From: a virus
Lineage: Duplodnaviria > Heunggongvirae > Uroviricota > Caudoviricetes
DNA: 5,028 bases
IMG/VR virus record: IMGVR_UViG_2802429242_000002
Span: 1-5,028 of that record
Direction: 5' to 3' (one strand)
Below, in pieces: positions 121 through 4,157 of the stretch. The position numbers and the translations under genes were made by a program. Below the pieces are notes generated by a model, which had not been told where the DNA came from, did no database searches, and saw only the letters and a list, made by a program, of their open reading frames with translations. Positions within the stretch are counted from its first letter, which is position 1; every line of letters starts with the position of its first letter.

Positions 121-1269
121 TCATTTGCGCCCCCTTACCTCTGAAGGGTTCAGCGACAAATTTATGAGGCAGGCCAGCGCCGAAGCATCATTAATATAGT
201 CATATAAGCTAACAGCCAGCGGAGATTCGGCTTTTGCCAACATAGGATAAAGCTGCTGCAGCCAGACCTGATGAATTGATGAAATGTAGGAACAGAGAAC
301 GCTGGCGTTATGTGCAACGTCGCTCGGTACAGCGGGCTTTGAAAGCTGTTTCTCCATCTGGTTAAAGGCATTGATGTATGCCTCTTTGAACTGGGCAGCA
401 CGTTTACCCGTGAAACCCATAGCAAGAAACGCAAAGCCGTCGCGGGTTATTTGATAGCAAGGTAGTTTGCGGCCTGTGCAATCGGTGTAATCACTCACCG
501 AAAAATTGCGGGCAGTGAATGATGCGGAACATTCAAGCGTGCGGATCTTTTTCAGTACATCGTCATGACGTTTGGAGAAGAAGTTGGCAACAGCCAGGGA
601 TGAAGTAACAGCCTGACCATCAACGATGGCAATTTCAGGTTGAGTGAGGGTTGGGATCGTAGCCATGATGACAGCCTCCGATAACAGTGAATTACCTTCA
701 CCACCGGAAACGCCAATTTCGCTGGTGGTGAACTGAACGGGGTTGGCGTAACCGGCGTTATCGGAAACCGGCGCACCTTTCGGTGCCCCCGTCCAGCCCA
801 CCATAATTTGGGTGTGCGCAGACGCAGACGATAAAAAAAACGCTGGCGCGTCATATATCGCCGATAACATTTCCAGGACGCCAATCCCGGCACCCGCTTT
901 ATAAGGTGCCTGAACAGTGTAACGTCCCGGAATGGCAGAATCAATGTGCTGGTGGTCCTTCACACTCAACAAAATCACGCCTGAATTTCCACAAAGGACT
1001 AAAGCACTCATGCGGGTAGTCTTTGCGAAGATAGATAACGCGCTGTGTTTCTGGCTCCCAACGAATAACATGAACATAAAGTCCTCTTCCGTCACGAAAC
1101 CAGCGGTTAAGTTCCTGCACAACTCGCCCCCCACAGTCAGGTAAAGTTCTCTGTGGTTACTTACAGGCAGGTGATTTGGTAATCTGCATTCATGCCGTAA
1201 CAACAGGTGTTCAGCCACGCGGACCACCAGCTGTTGCGACCAACGGTTATTTGCCGTTAAACTGTTCAT
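121..1269 (-). CDS. Rha-family phage regulatory protein (antirepressor-like), with a ~200-aa N-terminal region of unknown function
   Basis: 382-codon ORF. Residues ~205-305 (TLTQPEIAIVDGQAVTSSLAVANFFSKRHDDVLKKIRTLE ... YQITRDGFAFLAMGFTGKRAAQFKEAYINAFNQME) match the Rha-family signature as I recall it (KRHDnVLr ... TRDGF..LvMGFTG..A.qFK.aYI..FN.ME). Start ATG 1267-1269 overlaps the upstream gene's stop as ATGA (stop 1266-1268), with GGAG 10 nt upstream. The N-terminal half uses E. coli-like codons (CCG, GGT, ACC, GAA, AAC) and its other frames look like shadow ORFs. Alternative internal start ATG at 664-666 (M202) has a strong GGAGG SD 8 nt upstream and would give a 181-aa Rha-only protein. 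Confidence 0.6.
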   Translation of the reverse strand: MNSLTANNRWSQQLVVRVAEHLLLRHECRLPNHLPVSNHRELYLTVGGELCRNLTAGFVTEEDFMFMLFVGSQKHSALSIFAKTTRMSALVLCGNSGVILLSVKDHQHIDSAIPGRYTVQAPYKAGAGIGVLEMLSAIYDAPAFFLSSASAHTQIMVGWTGAPKGAPVSDNAGYANPVQFTTSEIGVSGGEGNSLLSEAVIMATIPTLTQPEIAIVDGQAVTSSLAVANFFSKRHDDVLKKIRTLECSASFTARNFSVSDYTDCTGRKLPCYQITRDGFAFLAMGFTGKRAAQFKEAYINAFNQMEKQLSKPAVPSDVAHNASVLCSYISSIHQVWLQQLYPMLAKAESPLAVSLYDYINDASALACLINLSLNPSEVRGRK

Positions 1270-1850
1270 GCGTTAGTTTCTCCACAACCAGAAGCAATCG
1301 ACGCCACGACGCCCGGAGCTGCACACTCGCGGGCGTTACTCTTTTCCGGCGCACAAAAAACACGAAATAACAGTGTTAAATGCTCCTGCCACTTCGCCAT
1401 TACTTGGTAGCTGTTCTCTTCGATTTGCTCACGCTCAGCCTGATCAATAACTCCATCAGCAGTTGCCTTGCGTAAGTACTGGGAATGCTTGCCAATCCAT
1501 TCTATTGACTCCATCAGCCGCTGATTAATGTCACCATTGTCAATGTCATCAATGACCACCAGCGGCACAAACACCCCATTACTACGACGGGCTATTGCAT
1601 CCGTTACATGCCTGGTACCACTGGCATCCTGTAAAACCATGGCCCACTCGAGTGGAAAAATTTGATCCCCACCGCTACGCAGTCTGTTATGCAATTGATC
1701 TTTTGCTGGGGTGATATCATCAGATTTATACAAACCAAGAATTTCTGCTGCTTCCTCATAGCCATGAGGTAAATCAGCAATCGTTCTTCGTATTGCTGCC
1801 ACCAGCCATGCTGGTTGTTTATCAACTTTCCATTCAGGTTCTTTACCCAC
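1266..1850 (-). CDS. CII-like / YdaT-like early regulatory protein
   Basis: Follows the Cro-like gene on the same strand, the position of lambda cII and Rac ydaT. I favour a GTG start at 1848-1850, with GAGGAA SD 6 nt upstream and a 28-nt gap after the Cro-like stop. The track ORF extends to ATG 1961, but that start and the in-frame ATGs at 1928/1925 lack an SD and would overlap the Cro-like gene by 47-83 nt. The DQLHNRLRSGG stretch loosely resembles what I recall of YdaT-family proteins; family assignment is from memory and position only. Confidence 0.55.
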   Translation of the reverse strand: MGKEPEWKVDKQPAWLVAAIRRTIADLPHGYEEAAEILGLYKSDDITPAKDQLHNRLRSGGDQIFPLEWAMVLQDASGTRHVTDAIARRSNGVFVPLVVIDDIDNGDINQRLMESIEWIGKHSQYLRKATADGVIDQAEREQIEENSYQVMAKWQEHLTLLFRVFCAPEKSNARECAAPGVVASIASGCGETNA

Positions 1851-1878
1851 GGTTAATTCCTCATTTCTGTGGTTACGT

Positions 1879-2142
1879 TTACGCAGCTGAACCGCTAACT
1901 TTTGAATAGCACTCAGGTAATCCATCATTTGGATTGGGGTAAATATCAGGACGCAATTCATGAGGGGTCACGGACCAGTTTCCCAACTCACAAAGTTGTA
2001 AAACCCGTTCTGACGGGACTTGATTGTTAATTACCCAATTAGCGACGGATTGAGTGGACTTAAAACCAAAGCGACGGGCTACTTCAGATAAAGATTTTCC
2101 CGCAGCTTTTACTGCTTTCTCTGTGTAGTTTTGAGATGACAT
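1879..2142 (-). CDS. Cro/YdaS-like helix-turn-helix regulator
   Basis: 87 aa. Sequence SLSEVARRFGFKSTQSVANWVINNQVPSERVLQLCELGNWSVTPHELRPDIY fits the YdaS/Cro-like pattern (HTH followed by a conserved HELRPD motif). Divergent from the repressor gene. GAGGAG SD 6 nt upstream of ATG 2140-2142. Confidence 0.85.
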   Translation of the reverse strand: MSSQNYTEKAVKAAGKSLSEVARRFGFKSTQSVANWVINNQVPSERVLQLCELGNWSVTPHELRPDIYPNPNDGLPECYSKVSGSAA

Positions 2143-2150
2143 ACCTTTCT

Positions 2151-2167
2151 CCTCTGAAATTCAGAGG
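2151..2167. promoter_or_regulatory. Perfect 17-bp palindrome CCTCTGAAATTCAGAGG overlapping the Cro-like gene's SD and predicted transcript start
   Basis: Read directly: 8-bp perfect inverted arms around a single central base. Lies between the predicted PR-like -10 (2169-2174) and the Cro-like start codon. Its sequence differs from the CTAC-N5-GTAG operator family. Confidence 0.4.
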
Positions 2168-2168
2168 G

Positions 2169-2197
2169 ATAATGCTACTTAAAATAGCAAAATGCAA
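2169..2197 (-). promoter_or_regulatory. PR-like promoter for the Cro-like operon (-35 TTGCAT, 17-bp spacer containing operator, -10 CATTAT)
   Basis: Minus-strand sequence TTGCATTTTGCTATTTTAAGTAGCATTAT. It matches the plus-strand element at 4129-4157 (TTGATTTTTGCTACTTTTGGTAGCAGAAT) at 22 of 29 positions with identical layout, supporting paired early promoters. Hexamers are moderate matches to sigma70 consensus. Confidence 0.45.
2173..2189. promoter_or_regulatory. Operator O_R1-like 17-mer TGCTACTTAAAATAGCA
   Basis: Inverted arms TGCTA/TAGCA. Shares the CTAC ... (G/A)TAG half-site pattern with sites at 2196-2212, 2241-2257, 4114-4130 and 4137-4153. Sits in the spacer of the PR-like promoter. 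Confidence 0.5.
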
Positions 2198-2212
2198 CTA
2201 CTTAAAATAGAA
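2196..2212. promoter_or_regulatory. Operator O_R2-like 17-mer AACTACTTAAAATAGAA
   Basis: Exact direct repeat of the 13-nt core CTACTTAAAATAG from O_R1, centre-to-centre spacing 23 bp, comparable to lambda operator spacing. Overlaps the -35 of the PR-like promoter. Confidence 0.45.
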
Positions 2213-2240
2213 ATGACTAGCGTATGTGATGTGAGTAATC

Positions 2241-2257
2241 TTCTACCTATGGTAGAA
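2241..2257. promoter_or_regulatory. Operator O_R3-like 17-mer TTCTACCTATGGTAGAA overlapping the favoured repressor start codon
   Basis: 7-bp perfect inverted arms (TTCTACC/GGTAGAA) with CTAC and GTAG at the same positions as in the other operators. Contains ATG 2249-2251. Confidence 0.45.
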
Positions 2258-2953
2258 GAACAGAAGTATCCAGATTTCGCCAAGAGACTAAACGAGCTAA
2301 TGACAAACAAGGGAATTTCTGTCACCCAACTCAAAAGTCTTGTGGGCGTTACATATGAAATGGCGCGGCGATACACAATCGGCGCTGCGAAGCCTCGTGC
2401 CTCTGTCATGAATAAACTTGCATTGGCTCTGGGGGTATCAGCTTCATATTTAGAATATGGTGTTGGCGAGAGAGAAGGATGTAAGGAAATGACAAGCATC
2501 CCCAATCCAACAAAACCCGATGTATACAGGATAGAAGTTTTGGATCTTAGCGTTAGCGCAGGACCTGGGACCTATATGCTTTCAGACTATGTTGATGTGC
2601 TCTACGCCATTGAGTTCACAACAGAACATGCCCGTTCTCTTTTCGGCAACCGTTCTCAGGATGATATTAAGGTTATGACTGTAAATGGCGATAGTATGTC
2701 CCCTACTCTCGTTTCCGGAGACCGACTGTTTGTCGACATTTCTGTTCGTCACTTCCAGACTGATGGAGTTTACTCTTTCGTTTACGGTAAGACTTTTCAT
2801 GTCAAACGTCTTCAAATGCAAGGTGACAAGCTAGCCGTTCTTTCGGATAACCCCGCCTATGAGAAATGGTATATCGATGAAAAATCGCAGGATCAGCTTT
2901 ATGTAATGGGCAAGGCGTTGATTCACGAATCTATAAAATACAACCGATTGTAA
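2249..2953 (+). CDS. cI/LexA-type prophage repressor (N-terminal XRE-family HTH, C-terminal S24 self-cleaving peptidase domain)
   Basis: HTH region FAKRLNELMTNKGISVTQLKSLVGVTYEMARRYTIGAAKPRASVMNKLALALGVSASYLEYG. Candidate Ala-Gly cleavage site in LSVSAGPG. Serine nucleophile in the GDSMSPT motif and lysine in FHVKRL, as in LexA/lambda cI. Start is uncertain: the track ORF begins at ATG 2192 (253 aa), but 2192 and the ATG at 2213 lie inside the PR-like -35/operator region. ATG 2249 (234 aa) leaves ~9 residues before helix 1 and may be leaderless. None of the three has an SD. Confidence 0.85.
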   Translation: MVEEQKYPDFAKRLNELMTNKGISVTQLKSLVGVTYEMARRYTIGAAKPRASVMNKLALALGVSASYLEYGVGEREGCKEMTSIPNPTKPDVYRIEVLDLSVSAGPGTYMLSDYVDVLYAIEFTTEHARSLFGNRSQDDIKVMTVNGDSMSPTLVSGDRLFVDISVRHFQTDGVYSFVYGKTFHVKRLQMQGDKLAVLSDNPAYEKWYIDEKSQDQLYVMGKALIHESIKYNRL

Positions 2954-2997
2954 AACTCAATCCTTTCAGGATTAAAAGATCTAAAAGGATAATAATA

Positions 2998-3360
2998 ATG
3001 AAATCTGAACTATTTCATAGCGAAGCAAATTCAGAAATTATCACCGCAGATGAGTTTATTGATTTCATAAACTCTTTCAAAAAGCCTTTAATTTGCCAAA
3101 TTTGCGGAAATCAATCATGGAGTGTAGTCGGTACTCTAGAACTTGAAGTTGAAGACAATCAGCCAAAACATCACGTAATCGAAGTTCTCAGCTATGCCCA
3201 ATACAAACCTGAAACTGATAGCGCTATAAATTATCCTGGTGGTATGCCGCTGTTTCGAATCACCTGTGATCACTGTGCACATGTACTTCTTTTTTCTTAT
3301 AAAAAAGCTAGATCATTGATCCAAAAAAGAAAAAATGAAAAAGAAGAGGATGGGAAATGA
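2998..3360 (+). CDS. Hypothetical small zinc-ribbon protein (two CxxC pairs), cargo gene downstream of repressor
   Basis: 120 aa with Cys33/Cys36 (CQIC) and Cys90/Cys93 (CDHC). AAAGGA SD 8 nt upstream of ATG 2998. Lysine-rich acidic tail. Markedly AT-rich (about one third G+C by hand count of 3001-3060, against about half in 601-660). I recognise no family. Confidence 0.7.
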   Translation: MKSELFHSEANSEIITADEFIDFINSFKKPLICQICGNQSWSVVGTLELEVEDNQPKHHVIEVLSYAQYKPETDSAINYPGGMPLFRITCDHCAHVLLFSYKKARSLIQKRKNEKEEDGK

Positions 3361-3989
3361 CGCGACCTTATCTCAGAGCAGTACCAAACTGTGGATCTGG
3401 TATTGATAAGTGTGACCTTTACCCCAATGTTAAGAACAGGCTGCGCGTCGGTATAGAAGAAATGTATACTGATTTTATCGAATCCGCAGATGAAACTTAC
3501 AAAACTGATGGGGGAAATAAAATGTCATCAGTTAGTCGAGAAGAAATTCAAGCACTTTTAGCTGCCAATAAAGCAGAAATGGAGTCCATTGCATCCTCTA
3601 TTAGAGTTGAAATGGCTTTATCTCGCGAGAACACAAACGTTCAGCTAGCATCTCTAAATTCAGCCATCAATTCTATCTCTTCGAAAATCGAAGGCAAAAT
3701 GGACAGTGTTGACGGGGATGTGAAGGCCATCAATGGTAGATTCGAAGGTATACAAGGCCAAATTACTGGAATAAATACAGCCATTAGTGGTATTCAATCT
3801 GGAATTTCTACCAGACTTGCTATTTTTGGAGTTATCATTGCGGTCATAGTTGCATTACCTAGCATAATTTCTGCTTTTAAAGATACTTCGCCAGTAGTTC
3901 AACCAGTTACACAACAACCAAGTGTTAAACATCTCAACCAAGAACCAATTACTCCACAAGTATTACCTCCGCAGGGAAAAGCAAACTAA
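3357..3989 (+). CDS. Hypothetical coiled-coil protein with single C-terminal transmembrane helix and proline-rich tail
   Basis: ATG 3357 overlaps the upstream stop as ATGA, with GAGGA 6 nt upstream. Alternative start ATG 3522 (M56) has GGGGGA 6 nt upstream. Residues ~60-150 are heptad-like and Ser/Ile/Gly-rich; hydrophobic segment LAIFGVIIAVIVALPSIISAF (~154-174); tail rich in P, Q and V. Architecture resembles small phage membrane proteins such as XhlA-like or exclusion proteins, by resemblance only. Confidence 0.65.
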   Translation: MTRPYLRAVPNCGSGIDKCDLYPNVKNRLRVGIEEMYTDFIESADETYKTDGGNKMSSVSREEIQALLAANKAEMESIASSIRVEMALSRENTNVQLASLNSAINSISSKIEGKMDSVDGDVKAINGRFEGIQGQITGINTAISGIQSGISTRLAIFGVIIAVIVALPSIISAFKDTSPVVQPVTQQPSVKHLNQEPITPQVLPPQGKAN

Positions 3990-4012
3990 ACCGGCTTTAT
4001 GCCGGTTTTTTT
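3989..4012 (+). terminator. Rho-independent terminator after the cargo cassette
   Basis: AACCGGC-TTTAT-GCCGGTT hairpin immediately after the TAA stop (3987-3989), followed by a run of seven T (4006-4012). Confidence 0.8.
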
Positions 4013-4113: not shown

Positions 4114-4130
4114 ATCTACTTTTAGTTGTT
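4114..4130. promoter_or_regulatory. Operator O_L2-like 17-mer ATCTACTTTTAGTTGTT (weaker half-site)
   Basis: CTAC half-site at the conserved position, second half GTTG instead of GTAG. Centre lies 23 bp from O_L1, the same spacing as O_R1 to O_R2. Overlaps the -35 of the PL-like promoter. Confidence 0.35.
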
Positions 4131-4157
4131 GATTTTTGCTACTTTTGGTAGCAGAAT
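4129..4157 (+). promoter_or_regulatory. PL-like early promoter (-35 TTGATT, 17-bp spacer containing operator, -10 CAGAAT)
   Basis: Matches the PR-like element at 2169-2197 at 22 of 29 positions in the same promoter orientation. Located downstream of the repressor cassette terminator and upstream of plus-strand small ORFs, as for lambda PL/OL. Confidence 0.45.
4137..4153. promoter_or_regulatory. Operator O_L1-like 17-mer TGCTACTTTTGGTAGCA
   Basis: 6-bp perfect inverted arms TGCTAC/GTAGCA. Same family as the O_R sites. Lies in the spacer and -10 of the PL-like promoter. Confidence 0.5.

What the first reader, a model, noticed from the sequence alone, without database searches (positions are those of the whole stretch)
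2151..2167. Perfect 17-bp palindrome of a different sequence class covering the Cro-like gene's ribosome-binding site
CCTCTGAAATTCAGAGG has 8-bp perfect arms and is unrelated to the CTAC-N5-GTAG operators. It sits between the PR-like -10 and the Cro-like start and includes the complement of the SD. It could be a binding site for a second regulator (the Cro-like or CII/YdaT-like protein, or a host factor), or a structure affecting translation of the Cro-like mRNA.
Basis: seen in the sequence. Interest (0 to 1): 0.4.

Follow-up and report, generated by a model that had tools for sequence, protein, structure and literature searches.

The report
Hairpin hiding the cro ribosome site
The palindrome is real and selection keeps its two arms complementary, but it most likely acts as an RNA hairpin that hides the ribosome-binding site of a prophage cro-like gene, probably only in transcripts that start upstream of the gene's own promoter, rather than as a protein-binding site.

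Summary
CCTCTGAAATTCAGAGG (2151-2167) is a perfect palindrome in the cI/cro intergenic region of an E. coli lambdoid prophage. It lies between the conserved PR-like -10 (CATTAT, 2174..2169) and the cro-like start codon (2142).

On the cro-sense strand its 3' arm holds GAGG of the Shine-Dalgarno GAGGAG. In about 12 related prophage lineages the sequence changes but the pairing persists, with compensatory changes, G.U wobbles and loops of 3-12 nt. Native arm pairs fold at -9.8 kcal/mol against -5.4 for chimeras (0 of 20000 permutations as good).

The Cro helix-turn-helix stays constant while the stem changes, and the site occurs once per prophage. It is therefore a selected hairpin, not a second operator.

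The anti-SD arm sits in the promoter discriminator, upstream of the predicted start G2162. A PR transcript would lack that arm and leave the SD open, whereas longer transcripts fold at -10 kcal/mol.

Best reading (confidence about 0.5): fold-back inhibition as in IS10/IS50, silencing cro translation from read-through transcripts. No transcription start has been mapped, and no read-through source has been shown.

The parts
2151..2167 (-). Inverted repeat that forms a hairpin on the cro-sense (minus) strand: 5' arm CCUCUGAA 2167..2160, centre U 2159, 3' arm UUCAGAGG 2158..2151. As RNA it folds into a 7-bp stem with a 3-nt loop.
   Evidence: -10.7 kcal/mol. Pairing is kept by covariation in relatives.
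2149..2154 (-). Shine-Dalgarno GAGGAG of the cro-like gene. Its first four bases form the end of the 3' arm.
   Evidence: Sequence. GGAG is invariant in 25 relatives. SD unpaired probability is 0.2 in long transcripts and 0.75 in a transcript starting at 2162.
2169..2174 (-). Predicted PR -10 hexamer CATTAT. A2, T3, A5 and T6 are invariant in 25 relatives.
   Evidence: PL at 4152-4157 has the same layout.
2192..2197 (-). Predicted PR -35 hexamer TTGCAT, 17 bp from the -10.
   Evidence: TTG is conserved at 16-17 bp in all lineages.
2162..2162 (-). Predicted PR transcription start: the 7th base after the -10, a purine after a pyrimidine run. It lies inside the 5' arm. This is a prediction, not a mapped start.
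2175..2187 (.). Operator O1, CTACTTAAAATAG, filling the PR spacer.
   Evidence: Sequence. Conserved CTA(C/T)-N5-(G/A)TAG in relatives.
2198..2210 (.). Operator O2, an identical 13-mer that abuts the PR -35.
2243..2255 (.). Operator O3, CTACCTATGGTAG, centred on the cI-like start codon ATG 2249-2251.
   Evidence: annotated start in L001.
1879..2142 (-). Cro-like gene (YdaS family HTH, 87 aa), whose translation start the hairpin controls.
2249..2953 (+). cI-like repressor (HTH plus peptidase S24), divergent from cro.

Best explanation
The palindrome is the DNA image of an RNA hairpin on the cro-sense strand. An anti-Shine-Dalgarno arm (CCUCUGAA) pairs with UUCAGAGG, which includes the start of the cro-like gene's SD. 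The anti-SD arm is built into the PR promoter itself, in the discriminator from -5 to +3. Transcripts started by PR at about G2162 therefore lack the arm and have an open SD, so they are translated after induction. Any transcript that enters from upstream carries both arms, folds at about -10 kcal/mol and hides the SD. Such transcripts could come from read-through or spurious antisense transcription across cI, a candidate promoter at 2292..2265, or circular-genome late read-through. An untranslated leader would also leave such RNA open to Rho-dependent polarity. This is the logic of IS10/IS50 'fold-back inhibition' applied to a prophage switch: it keeps stray transcription from making Cro in a lysogen. 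What is shown: the palindrome, its position, selection for pairing, and the absence of operator-like properties. What is inferred: the start site, the existence of upstream transcripts, and the translational effect.
For: The pairing is under selection.
- In 12 stem-type lineages that share the same operator/promoter layout, native 5'+3' halves fold at -9.8 kcal/mol against -5.4 for chimeras. None of 20000 permutations did as well.
- On a plain MAFFT alignment, 78% of cells are paired against 69% when shuffled (0/500). There are 20 double-sided changes against 8.8 (0/500), and the covariation score is 0.33 against 0.08-0.12 for slid controls.
- RNAalifold on the window's own clade gives a 6-bp consensus stem. 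One pair reads CG 8 / GC 3 / AU 1 with none broken, and another reads GC 7 / AU 3 / GU 1.
- An alignment made with a covariance model gives the same picture.

The signature is RNA-like and strand-specific.
- 40 of 292 stem pairs are G.U on the cro-sense strand.
- The sense strand folds better than the antisense strand in 22 of 28 leaders.
- Loop length varies from 3 to 12 nt.

The promoter assignment is well supported.
- TTGCAT-17-CATTAT is the best minus-strand match.
- The key -10 positions are invariant in 25 leaders.
- PL (TTGATT-17-CAGAAT, 4129-4157) has the same operator/promoter layout.
- In a sister clade the -35 and the -10 move together by 3 bp relative to the operator.

The start site falls inside the arm.
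- The bases that pair with the SD lie 0-6 nt after the -10 in all 12 lineages, which is upstream of a position-7 start.
- RNAs starting at or above 2167 fold at -9.6 to -10.7 kcal/mol with SD unpaired probability 0.2-0.33. An RNA starting at 2162 folds at -0.6 kcal/mol with 0.75.

The precedent is Davis, Simons and Kleckner 1985, Cell 43:379 (listed in the references of PMC13181058). My description of that mechanism comes from my own knowledge.
Against: - No transcription start has been mapped for this or any close relative. No characterised phage carries this immunity region.
- No source of upstream, cro-direction transcripts has been demonstrated. The promoter-like sites on that strand are no more frequent than in shuffled sequence (8 found against 6.5 expected).
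- A bidirectional terminator at 3988-4008 and repressor bound at O1-O3 would already limit read-through.
- The sister clade, whose -10 is TAGTAT overlapping the operator, mostly lacks the hairpin. The feature is therefore dispensable, and it tracks promoter architecture, which could point to a promoter-level role instead.
- RNAalifold on the full, partly mis-registered alignment found no consensus structure.
Confidence: 0.5

Rival explanations
1. The hairpin lies within the ordinary PR mRNA. Transcription would start at or upstream of 2167, and the stem would act as a constitutive translational attenuator, a 5'-terminal stabiliser or an RNA thermometer for cro.
For: The same covariation and G.U evidence for an SD-pairing RNA stem applies. 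The hairpin is stable at -10.7 kcal/mol. SD-sequestering 5'-UTR stems are common, for example in IS200 tnpA (PMC4513863).
Against: The 5' arm begins 1-2 nt after the conserved -10 in every lineage, and in some it extends into the -10 itself. RNA polymerase using that -10 cannot start there. Alternative -10 candidates score lower or lack a -35. A perfect GC-rich 7-9 bp stem is unlike the weak, mismatched stems of RNA thermometers (own knowledge).
Confidence: 0.15
2. The palindrome is a DNA operator for a second dimeric regulator, which could be the Cro-like protein, the YmfL/CII-like protein or a host factor. It would be centred near +4 of PR.
For: It is a perfect dyad overlapping the predicted start site, which is a classic repressor position. 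As DNA the window's copy is perfectly symmetric.
Against: Arm sequences differ between lineages while the Cro recognition region is unchanged. The distance between arms varies, with loops of 3-12 nt. G.U-type mismatches occur on one strand only. No second copy or half-site cluster appears in the window or in a 24.7-kb prophage. The covariance model finds only this one site.
Confidence: 0.07
3. The element acts at the promoter as single-stranded DNA. During initial transcription the scrunched non-template strand (-5 to +12) would fold into the hairpin and change promoter escape or open-complex lifetime.
For: The stem spans exactly the discriminator plus the initially transcribed region. The strand bias fits the non-template strand as well as it fits RNA. 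Presence of the stem tracks promoter architecture.
Against: I know of no precedent. The 3' arm always ends on the SD, which a purely transcriptional element has no reason to do, although the leader is only about 20 nt long. PL has the same promoter layout but no such dyad.
Confidence: 0.05
4. The palindrome has no function. The complementarity would be a by-product of a pyrimidine-rich discriminator facing a purine-rich SD, or a chance palindrome.
For: The window's palindrome alone is not very improbable. The outer pairs (CC/GG) hardly vary. One sister clade manages without the stem.
Against: Inner pairs covary: CG/GC/AU at one pair and GC/AU at another. Chimeras of equally pyrimidine-rich and purine-rich halves fold 4.4 kcal/mol worse, with 0 of 20000 permutations as good.
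Confidence: 0.08

Closest known systems
IS10/Tn10 and IS50/Tn5 'fold-back inhibition': protection of transposase from external promoters (Davis, Simons and Kleckner 1985; Krebs and Reznikoff 1986). Mechanism recalled from my own knowledge; the first citation was seen.
   Same: An inverted repeat whose distal arm covers the translation start signals. The element's own promoter fires inside or after the proximal arm, so only transcripts from outside fold and are silenced.
   Different: Here the gene is the cro-like switch gene of a prophage, not a transposase. The proximal arm coincides with the promoter discriminator of a repressor-controlled PR. The start site and the effect on translation are predicted, not measured. 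There is no antisense RNA partner like RNA-OUT.
SD-sequestering 5'-UTR stem-loops, for example IS200 tnpA (PMC4513863)
   Same: A stable cis stem pairs an anti-SD with a near-consensus SD.
   Different: In IS200 the whole stem lies inside the mapped 5' UTR. Here the anti-SD arm lies upstream of the predicted start.
Lambda-type OR/OL operators
   Same: A dyad-symmetric DNA element in the cI/cro intergenic region, overlapping a promoter.
   Different: It is a single copy of a different sequence class, with variable arm spacing. It varies while the Cro helix-turn-helix does not. The true operators here are the CTAC-N5-GTAG sites.
Promoter-dependent translation of lambda cI: the PRM transcript is leaderless and the PRE transcript carries an SD (own knowledge)
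   Same: Which promoter makes the RNA decides how well a switch gene is translated.
   Different: In lambda the difference is the presence or absence of a leader and SD. Here it would be the presence or absence of an anti-SD arm.

Membership tests
Fold-back inhibition of read-through transcripts (IS10/IS50 type) | An inverted repeat whose 3' arm covers the ribosome-binding site or start codon | tested here: met
   The 3' arm UUCAGAGG includes GAGG of the SD GAGGAG. In the L164 lineage the stem also covers the AUG.
Fold-back inhibition of read-through transcripts (IS10/IS50 type) | The element's own promoter starts transcription within or downstream of the 5' arm | tested here: inconclusive
   Met by prediction only. 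The conserved TTGCAT-17-CATTAT places +1 at about 2162, inside the arm. SD partners lie 0-6 nt after the -10 in 12 lineages. No start site has been mapped.
Fold-back inhibition of read-through transcripts (IS10/IS50 type) | Pairing is maintained by selection | tested here: met
   Chimera test 0/20000. Covariation counts. RNAalifold on the clade.
Fold-back inhibition of read-through transcripts (IS10/IS50 type) | Externally initiated transcripts exist and are poorly translated, while own-promoter transcripts are translated | not testable with these tools
   Only folding predictions are available: -10.7 against -0.6 kcal/mol, and SD unpaired probability 0.2 against 0.75.
5'-UTR translational attenuator or RNA thermometer | The whole stem-loop lies inside the mRNA made from the gene's own promoter | tested here: not met
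   Not met by prediction. The 5' arm starts 1-2 nt after the -10 hexamer.
5'-UTR translational attenuator or RNA thermometer | A weak stem, rich in mismatches or U.G pairs, that melts in the physiological range | tested here: not met
   A perfect 7-bp stem plus 2 extra pairs, folding at -10.7 kcal/mol.
Lambdoid operator (repressor or Cro site) | Shares the operator consensus and occurs in several copies at OR and OL | tested here: not met
   No other copy with up to 3 mismatches in the window or in L001. It is unlike CTAC-N5-GTAG.
Lambdoid operator (repressor or Cro site) | Fixed half-site spacing, with sequence changes that track changes in the DNA-binding protein | tested here: not met
   Loops of 3-12 nt. 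The Cro helix-turn-helix is constant across different stems.
Intrinsic terminator | A GC-rich hairpin followed by a U run | tested here: not met
   No T run follows on either strand, and the scan did not call it.
Any Rfam family | A match to a curated covariance model | tested here: not met
   No hit at 2100-2260, even at E-value up to 1.

The most novel reading that the evidence does not exclude
The hairpin would act as single-stranded non-template DNA rather than as RNA. It would fold inside the scrunched initial transcribing complex of PR (-5 to +12) and tune promoter escape or open-complex lifetime. That would be a promoter-embedded DNA hairpin maintained by covariation. The evidence cannot separate this from the RNA reading: the strand bias, the position, and the link to one promoter architecture fit both.
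Probability: 0.05. Interest if true: 0.8.

Novelty: new member of a known kind. Interest (0 to 1): 0.45.

Why it matters
If the best reading holds, a family of enterobacterial prophages protects its lysis-lysogeny switch at the level of translation. Cro can be made only from RNA that PR itself starts, so stray transcription across the immunity region cannot flip the switch. That would carry a trick known from transposons (IS10/IS50) over to phage genetic switches. It would also add a third control layer, beside operators and promoters, to a module present in about 4% of complete E. coli genomes (207 of 5426). The case also shows that an element with no sequence conservation can still be under clear selection. 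It gives a simple test: map one 5' end.

Tried and rejected
- **Metagenome scan.** A scan for TTTAAGTAGCATTAT returned 120 loci, but only three showed the operator-plus--10 pattern and none carried a cro-like gene, so I treat them as chance matches and found no new lineages.
- **Viral-contig pattern scans.** Two scans recovered only lineages already in hand, so sampling of this layout in that collection seems saturated.
- **RNAalifold on all 25 leaders.** It gave no consensus structure, because MAFFT put several lineages one column out of register. The subset from the window's clade and the covariance-model alignment worked.
- **Generality across other operator types.** A test on cro-like genes with other operator types was inconclusive. 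Two other families (L151, L143) show similar stems and most do not. I do not claim generality.
- **Literature searches.** Searches on e14, cohE, croE, operators and cro hairpins found no description of this element.
- **Phage collection.** It holds no characterised phage with this immunity region, so no mapped start site could be borrowed.
- **Whole-window search.** The whole window has no full-length match among complete E. coli genomes.
- **Mahillon and Chandler IS review.** The review (PMC98933) is not held.
- **Terminator reading.** Rejected because there is no U run.
- **e14 itself.** Rejected as the source. The YmfL annotation suggested it, but only 207 of the 5426 complete E. coli genomes match this DNA, and the species-representative scan returned no E. 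coli locus. I did not check a K-12 record directly.

Full report
**Observation.** The window reads CCTCTGAAATTCAGAGG at 2151-2167, a perfect dyad with 8-bp arms around one central base. Alone it is only mildly unusual. Sixteen percent of simulated 5-kb windows contain such a palindrome, although only 0.6% of 107-bp stretches do.

**Context.**
- The window is the immunity region of an E. coli lambdoid prophage with a P27-type terminase, Q, a lysis cassette and an integrase.
- On the minus strand lie a YdaS-family Cro-like gene (2142..1879) and a YmfL/CII-like gene. On the plus strand lies an HTH plus S24-peptidase cI-like repressor that starts at ATG 2249.
- The module is present in 207 of 5426 complete E. 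coli genomes. It is a mosaic unit: only window 1233-4233 matches prophage L001, at 99.5% identity.
- The operators are CTAC-N5-(G/A)TAG at 2175-2187, 2198-2210 and 2243-2255, with two more at 4116-4128 and 4139-4151.

**Promoter.**
- The best minus-strand sigma-70 match in the intergenic region is TTGCAT (2197..2192) -17- CATTAT (2174..2169). The PWM I used rests on consensus frequencies recalled from memory.
- Three independent observations support this assignment:
  - A2, T3, A5 and T6 of the -10 are invariant in 25 otherwise divergent leaders.
  - The PL-like promoter TTGATT-17-CAGAAT (4129-4157) has the same arrangement of two operators around the -35 and the spacer.
  - In a sister clade the -35 and the -10 (TAGTAT) shift together by 3 bp relative to the operator.
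- The seventh base after the -10 is G2162, a purine after the run CCCTCT. The same 'six mostly pyrimidine bases then a purine' pattern recurs in the related lineages.

**What the palindrome is on the cro-sense strand.** That strand reads CAUUAU-C-CCUCUGAA-U-UUCAGAGG-AGAAAGGU-AUG. The 3' arm carries GAGG of the SD GAGGAG (2154..2149). The stem folds at -10.7 kcal/mol.

**Comparative evidence.** I fetched relatives of the Cro-like protein from one-genome-per-species contigs and from viral contigs and extracted the leaders.
- Among elements that share the operators and the layout GTAG|(C/T)AT(T/C)AT, the leader sequence changes freely, yet a stem between the bases just after the -10 and the SD region persists.
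- Examples of paired arms are CCTCTGAA/TTCAGAGG, CCTCTGGA/TTCAGAGG (G.U), CCTCTGAA/TTCGGAGG (U.G), CTTCTA/TAGAGG, CTCTAC/GTAGAG, CCTGTGAA/TTCACAGG, CCTGTGAG/CTCACAGG, CCTATGA/TCATAGG, CCTTGG/CCAAGG, CCTTCTG/CAGGAGG and CTCTTGG/CCAGGAG. The L164 lineage has a 17-bp stem running from the -10 to the AUG.

**Tests of selection for pairing.**
- Chimera test: for 12 stem types, native halves fold at -9.8 kcal/mol and chimeric halves at -5.4. None of 20000 permutations reached the native value.
- On an unsupervised MAFFT alignment, 78% of cells pair against 69% in shuffles (0/500). There are 20 cells with changes on both sides against 8.8 (0/500). The covariation score is 0.33, against 0.19 shuffled and 0.08-0.12 when the partner is slid.
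- RNAalifold on the window's own clade predicts the 6-bp stem. One pair reads CG 8 / GC 3 / AU 1 with none broken, and another reads GC 7 / AU 3 / GU 1 / AC 1.
- A covariance-model alignment gives 90% paired, 9 double-sided cells against 3.4 (0/500), and slid controls of at most 0.078.
- RNAalifold on the full 25-sequence MAFFT alignment found nothing. I attribute that to register shifts in the more distant lineages.

**RNA or protein site?**
- Loop length ranges from 3 to 12 nt.
- Forty of 292 stem pairs are G.U on the cro-sense strand, and that strand folds better than its complement in 22 of 28 leaders.
- The Cro region FGFKS(T/P)QSVANW is constant across lineages whose stems differ by compensatory changes.
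- The motif occurs once in the window and once in 24.7 kb of prophage.
- These points argue against a second operator and for a hairpin in a single strand of cro-sense polarity. Rfam has no family here.

**The twist.**
- In all 12 lineages the bases that pair with the SD lie 0-6 nt after the -10, and in some the stem runs into the -10 itself.
- Covarying position 2164 sits at -2 of the predicted promoter.
- A transcript from G2162 keeps only GAA of the 5' arm. It folds at -0.6 kcal/mol with the SD 75% unpaired. RNAs starting at or above 2167 fold at -9.6 to -10.7 kcal/mol with the SD 20-33% unpaired.
- So the RNA on which selection acts cannot be the ordinary PR transcript, unless the promoter assignment is wrong.

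**Mechanism proposed.**
- The arrangement has an anti-SD arm upstream of the gene's own start site and an SD arm downstream. This is what I recall for IS10 and IS50, where it silences translation of transcripts that enter from outside promoters. The references are Davis, Simons and Kleckner 1985 (citation seen) and Krebs and Reznikoff 1986 (own knowledge).
- Applied here, it would keep stray cro-direction transcripts from producing Cro in a lysogen. Because the leader would be untranslated, downstream lytic genes would also stay exposed to Rho polarity (inference).
- Possible sources of such transcripts:
  - spurious antisense initiation in the AT-rich cI operon;
  - a promoter-like site at 2292..2265 that recurs about 122-128 nt upstream of cro in several lineages;
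  - late transcripts running round a circular genome.
- None of these sources has been shown to exist. Promoter-like sites on that strand are no more common than in shuffles.

**Weak points.**
- There is no mapped start site and no characterised relative.
- The sister clade with the overlapping -10 mostly lacks the stem. The element is therefore dispensable, and its presence tracks promoter architecture.
- That leaves room for a promoter-level role of the same strand as single-stranded non-template DNA, which I rate unlikely but cannot exclude.

**Verdict.** The 'second regulator' reading is not supported. The 'structure affecting cro translation' reading is supported, with the qualification that it probably acts only on transcripts that start upstream of PR. 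I class it as a new member of a known kind, SD sequestration by fold-back inhibition, in a new setting.

Noticed in passing
window 721-808 (-) and 833-909 (-): Rfam matches to C4 antisense RNA (82.8 bits, E 7e-16) and to the isrK Hfq-binding RNA (61.7 bits, E 7e-12), plus a weak c4-a1b1 target match. They lie inside the mechanical 382-aa ORF 121..1269, which matches Pfam Ash and Phage_pRha. That ORF is probably not one gene. It looks like a P1/P7 immI-type c4/antirepressor module downstream of the ymfL-like gene.
   Followed up: no
window 2243-2255 and 2249-2251: The cI-like start codon ATG sits at the exact centre of operator O3 (CTACCT-ATG-GTAG). The same is true in the relative L003 (CTACTTATGGTGG). 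A plus-strand promoter match, ATGACT-17-TAATCT, would start transcription at 2248/2249. That suggests a leaderless, autoregulated cI mRNA as at lambda PRM.
   Followed up: partly
window 4116-4157: A PL-like promoter, TTGATT-17-CAGAAT, has two operators laid out exactly as at PR. It is preceded by a bidirectional terminator-like hairpin at 3988-4008.
   Followed up: partly
relatives L003, L215-L233, L183-L200 compared with the window: There are two promoter architectures in one operator family. In the window's clade the operator is followed immediately by the -10 (C/T)AT(T/C)AT, and the SD hairpin is present. In the sister clade the -10 is TAGTAT overlapping the operator, the -35 is shifted by the same 3 bp, and the hairpin is usually absent.
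   Followed up: partly
window 2265-2292 (-): A promoter-like site, TTTAGT-16-GATACT, lies antisense in the first codons of cI and reads towards cro, with a predicted start at 2258 just before O3. Similar sites (TTCAGT-16-TATATT and others) recur 122-128 nt upstream of cro in several lineages. It may simply reflect conserved coding sequence.
   Followed up: partly
L002 (E. coli O157:H7 strain 146N4), locus 1549-3125: In this strain the cro-like gene is split by an IS3-family insertion, while the intergenic region and the cI-like gene stay intact. The prophage switch is presumably locked.
   Followed up: no
window 1233 and 4233; L001 12400-13105: Only window 1233-4233 matches prophage L001, at 99.5% identity, and the flanks differ, so the immunity module is a mosaic unit. 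In L001 the cI-like gene is annotated as a frameshifted pseudogene. No complete E. coli genome contains the whole window.
   Followed up: partly
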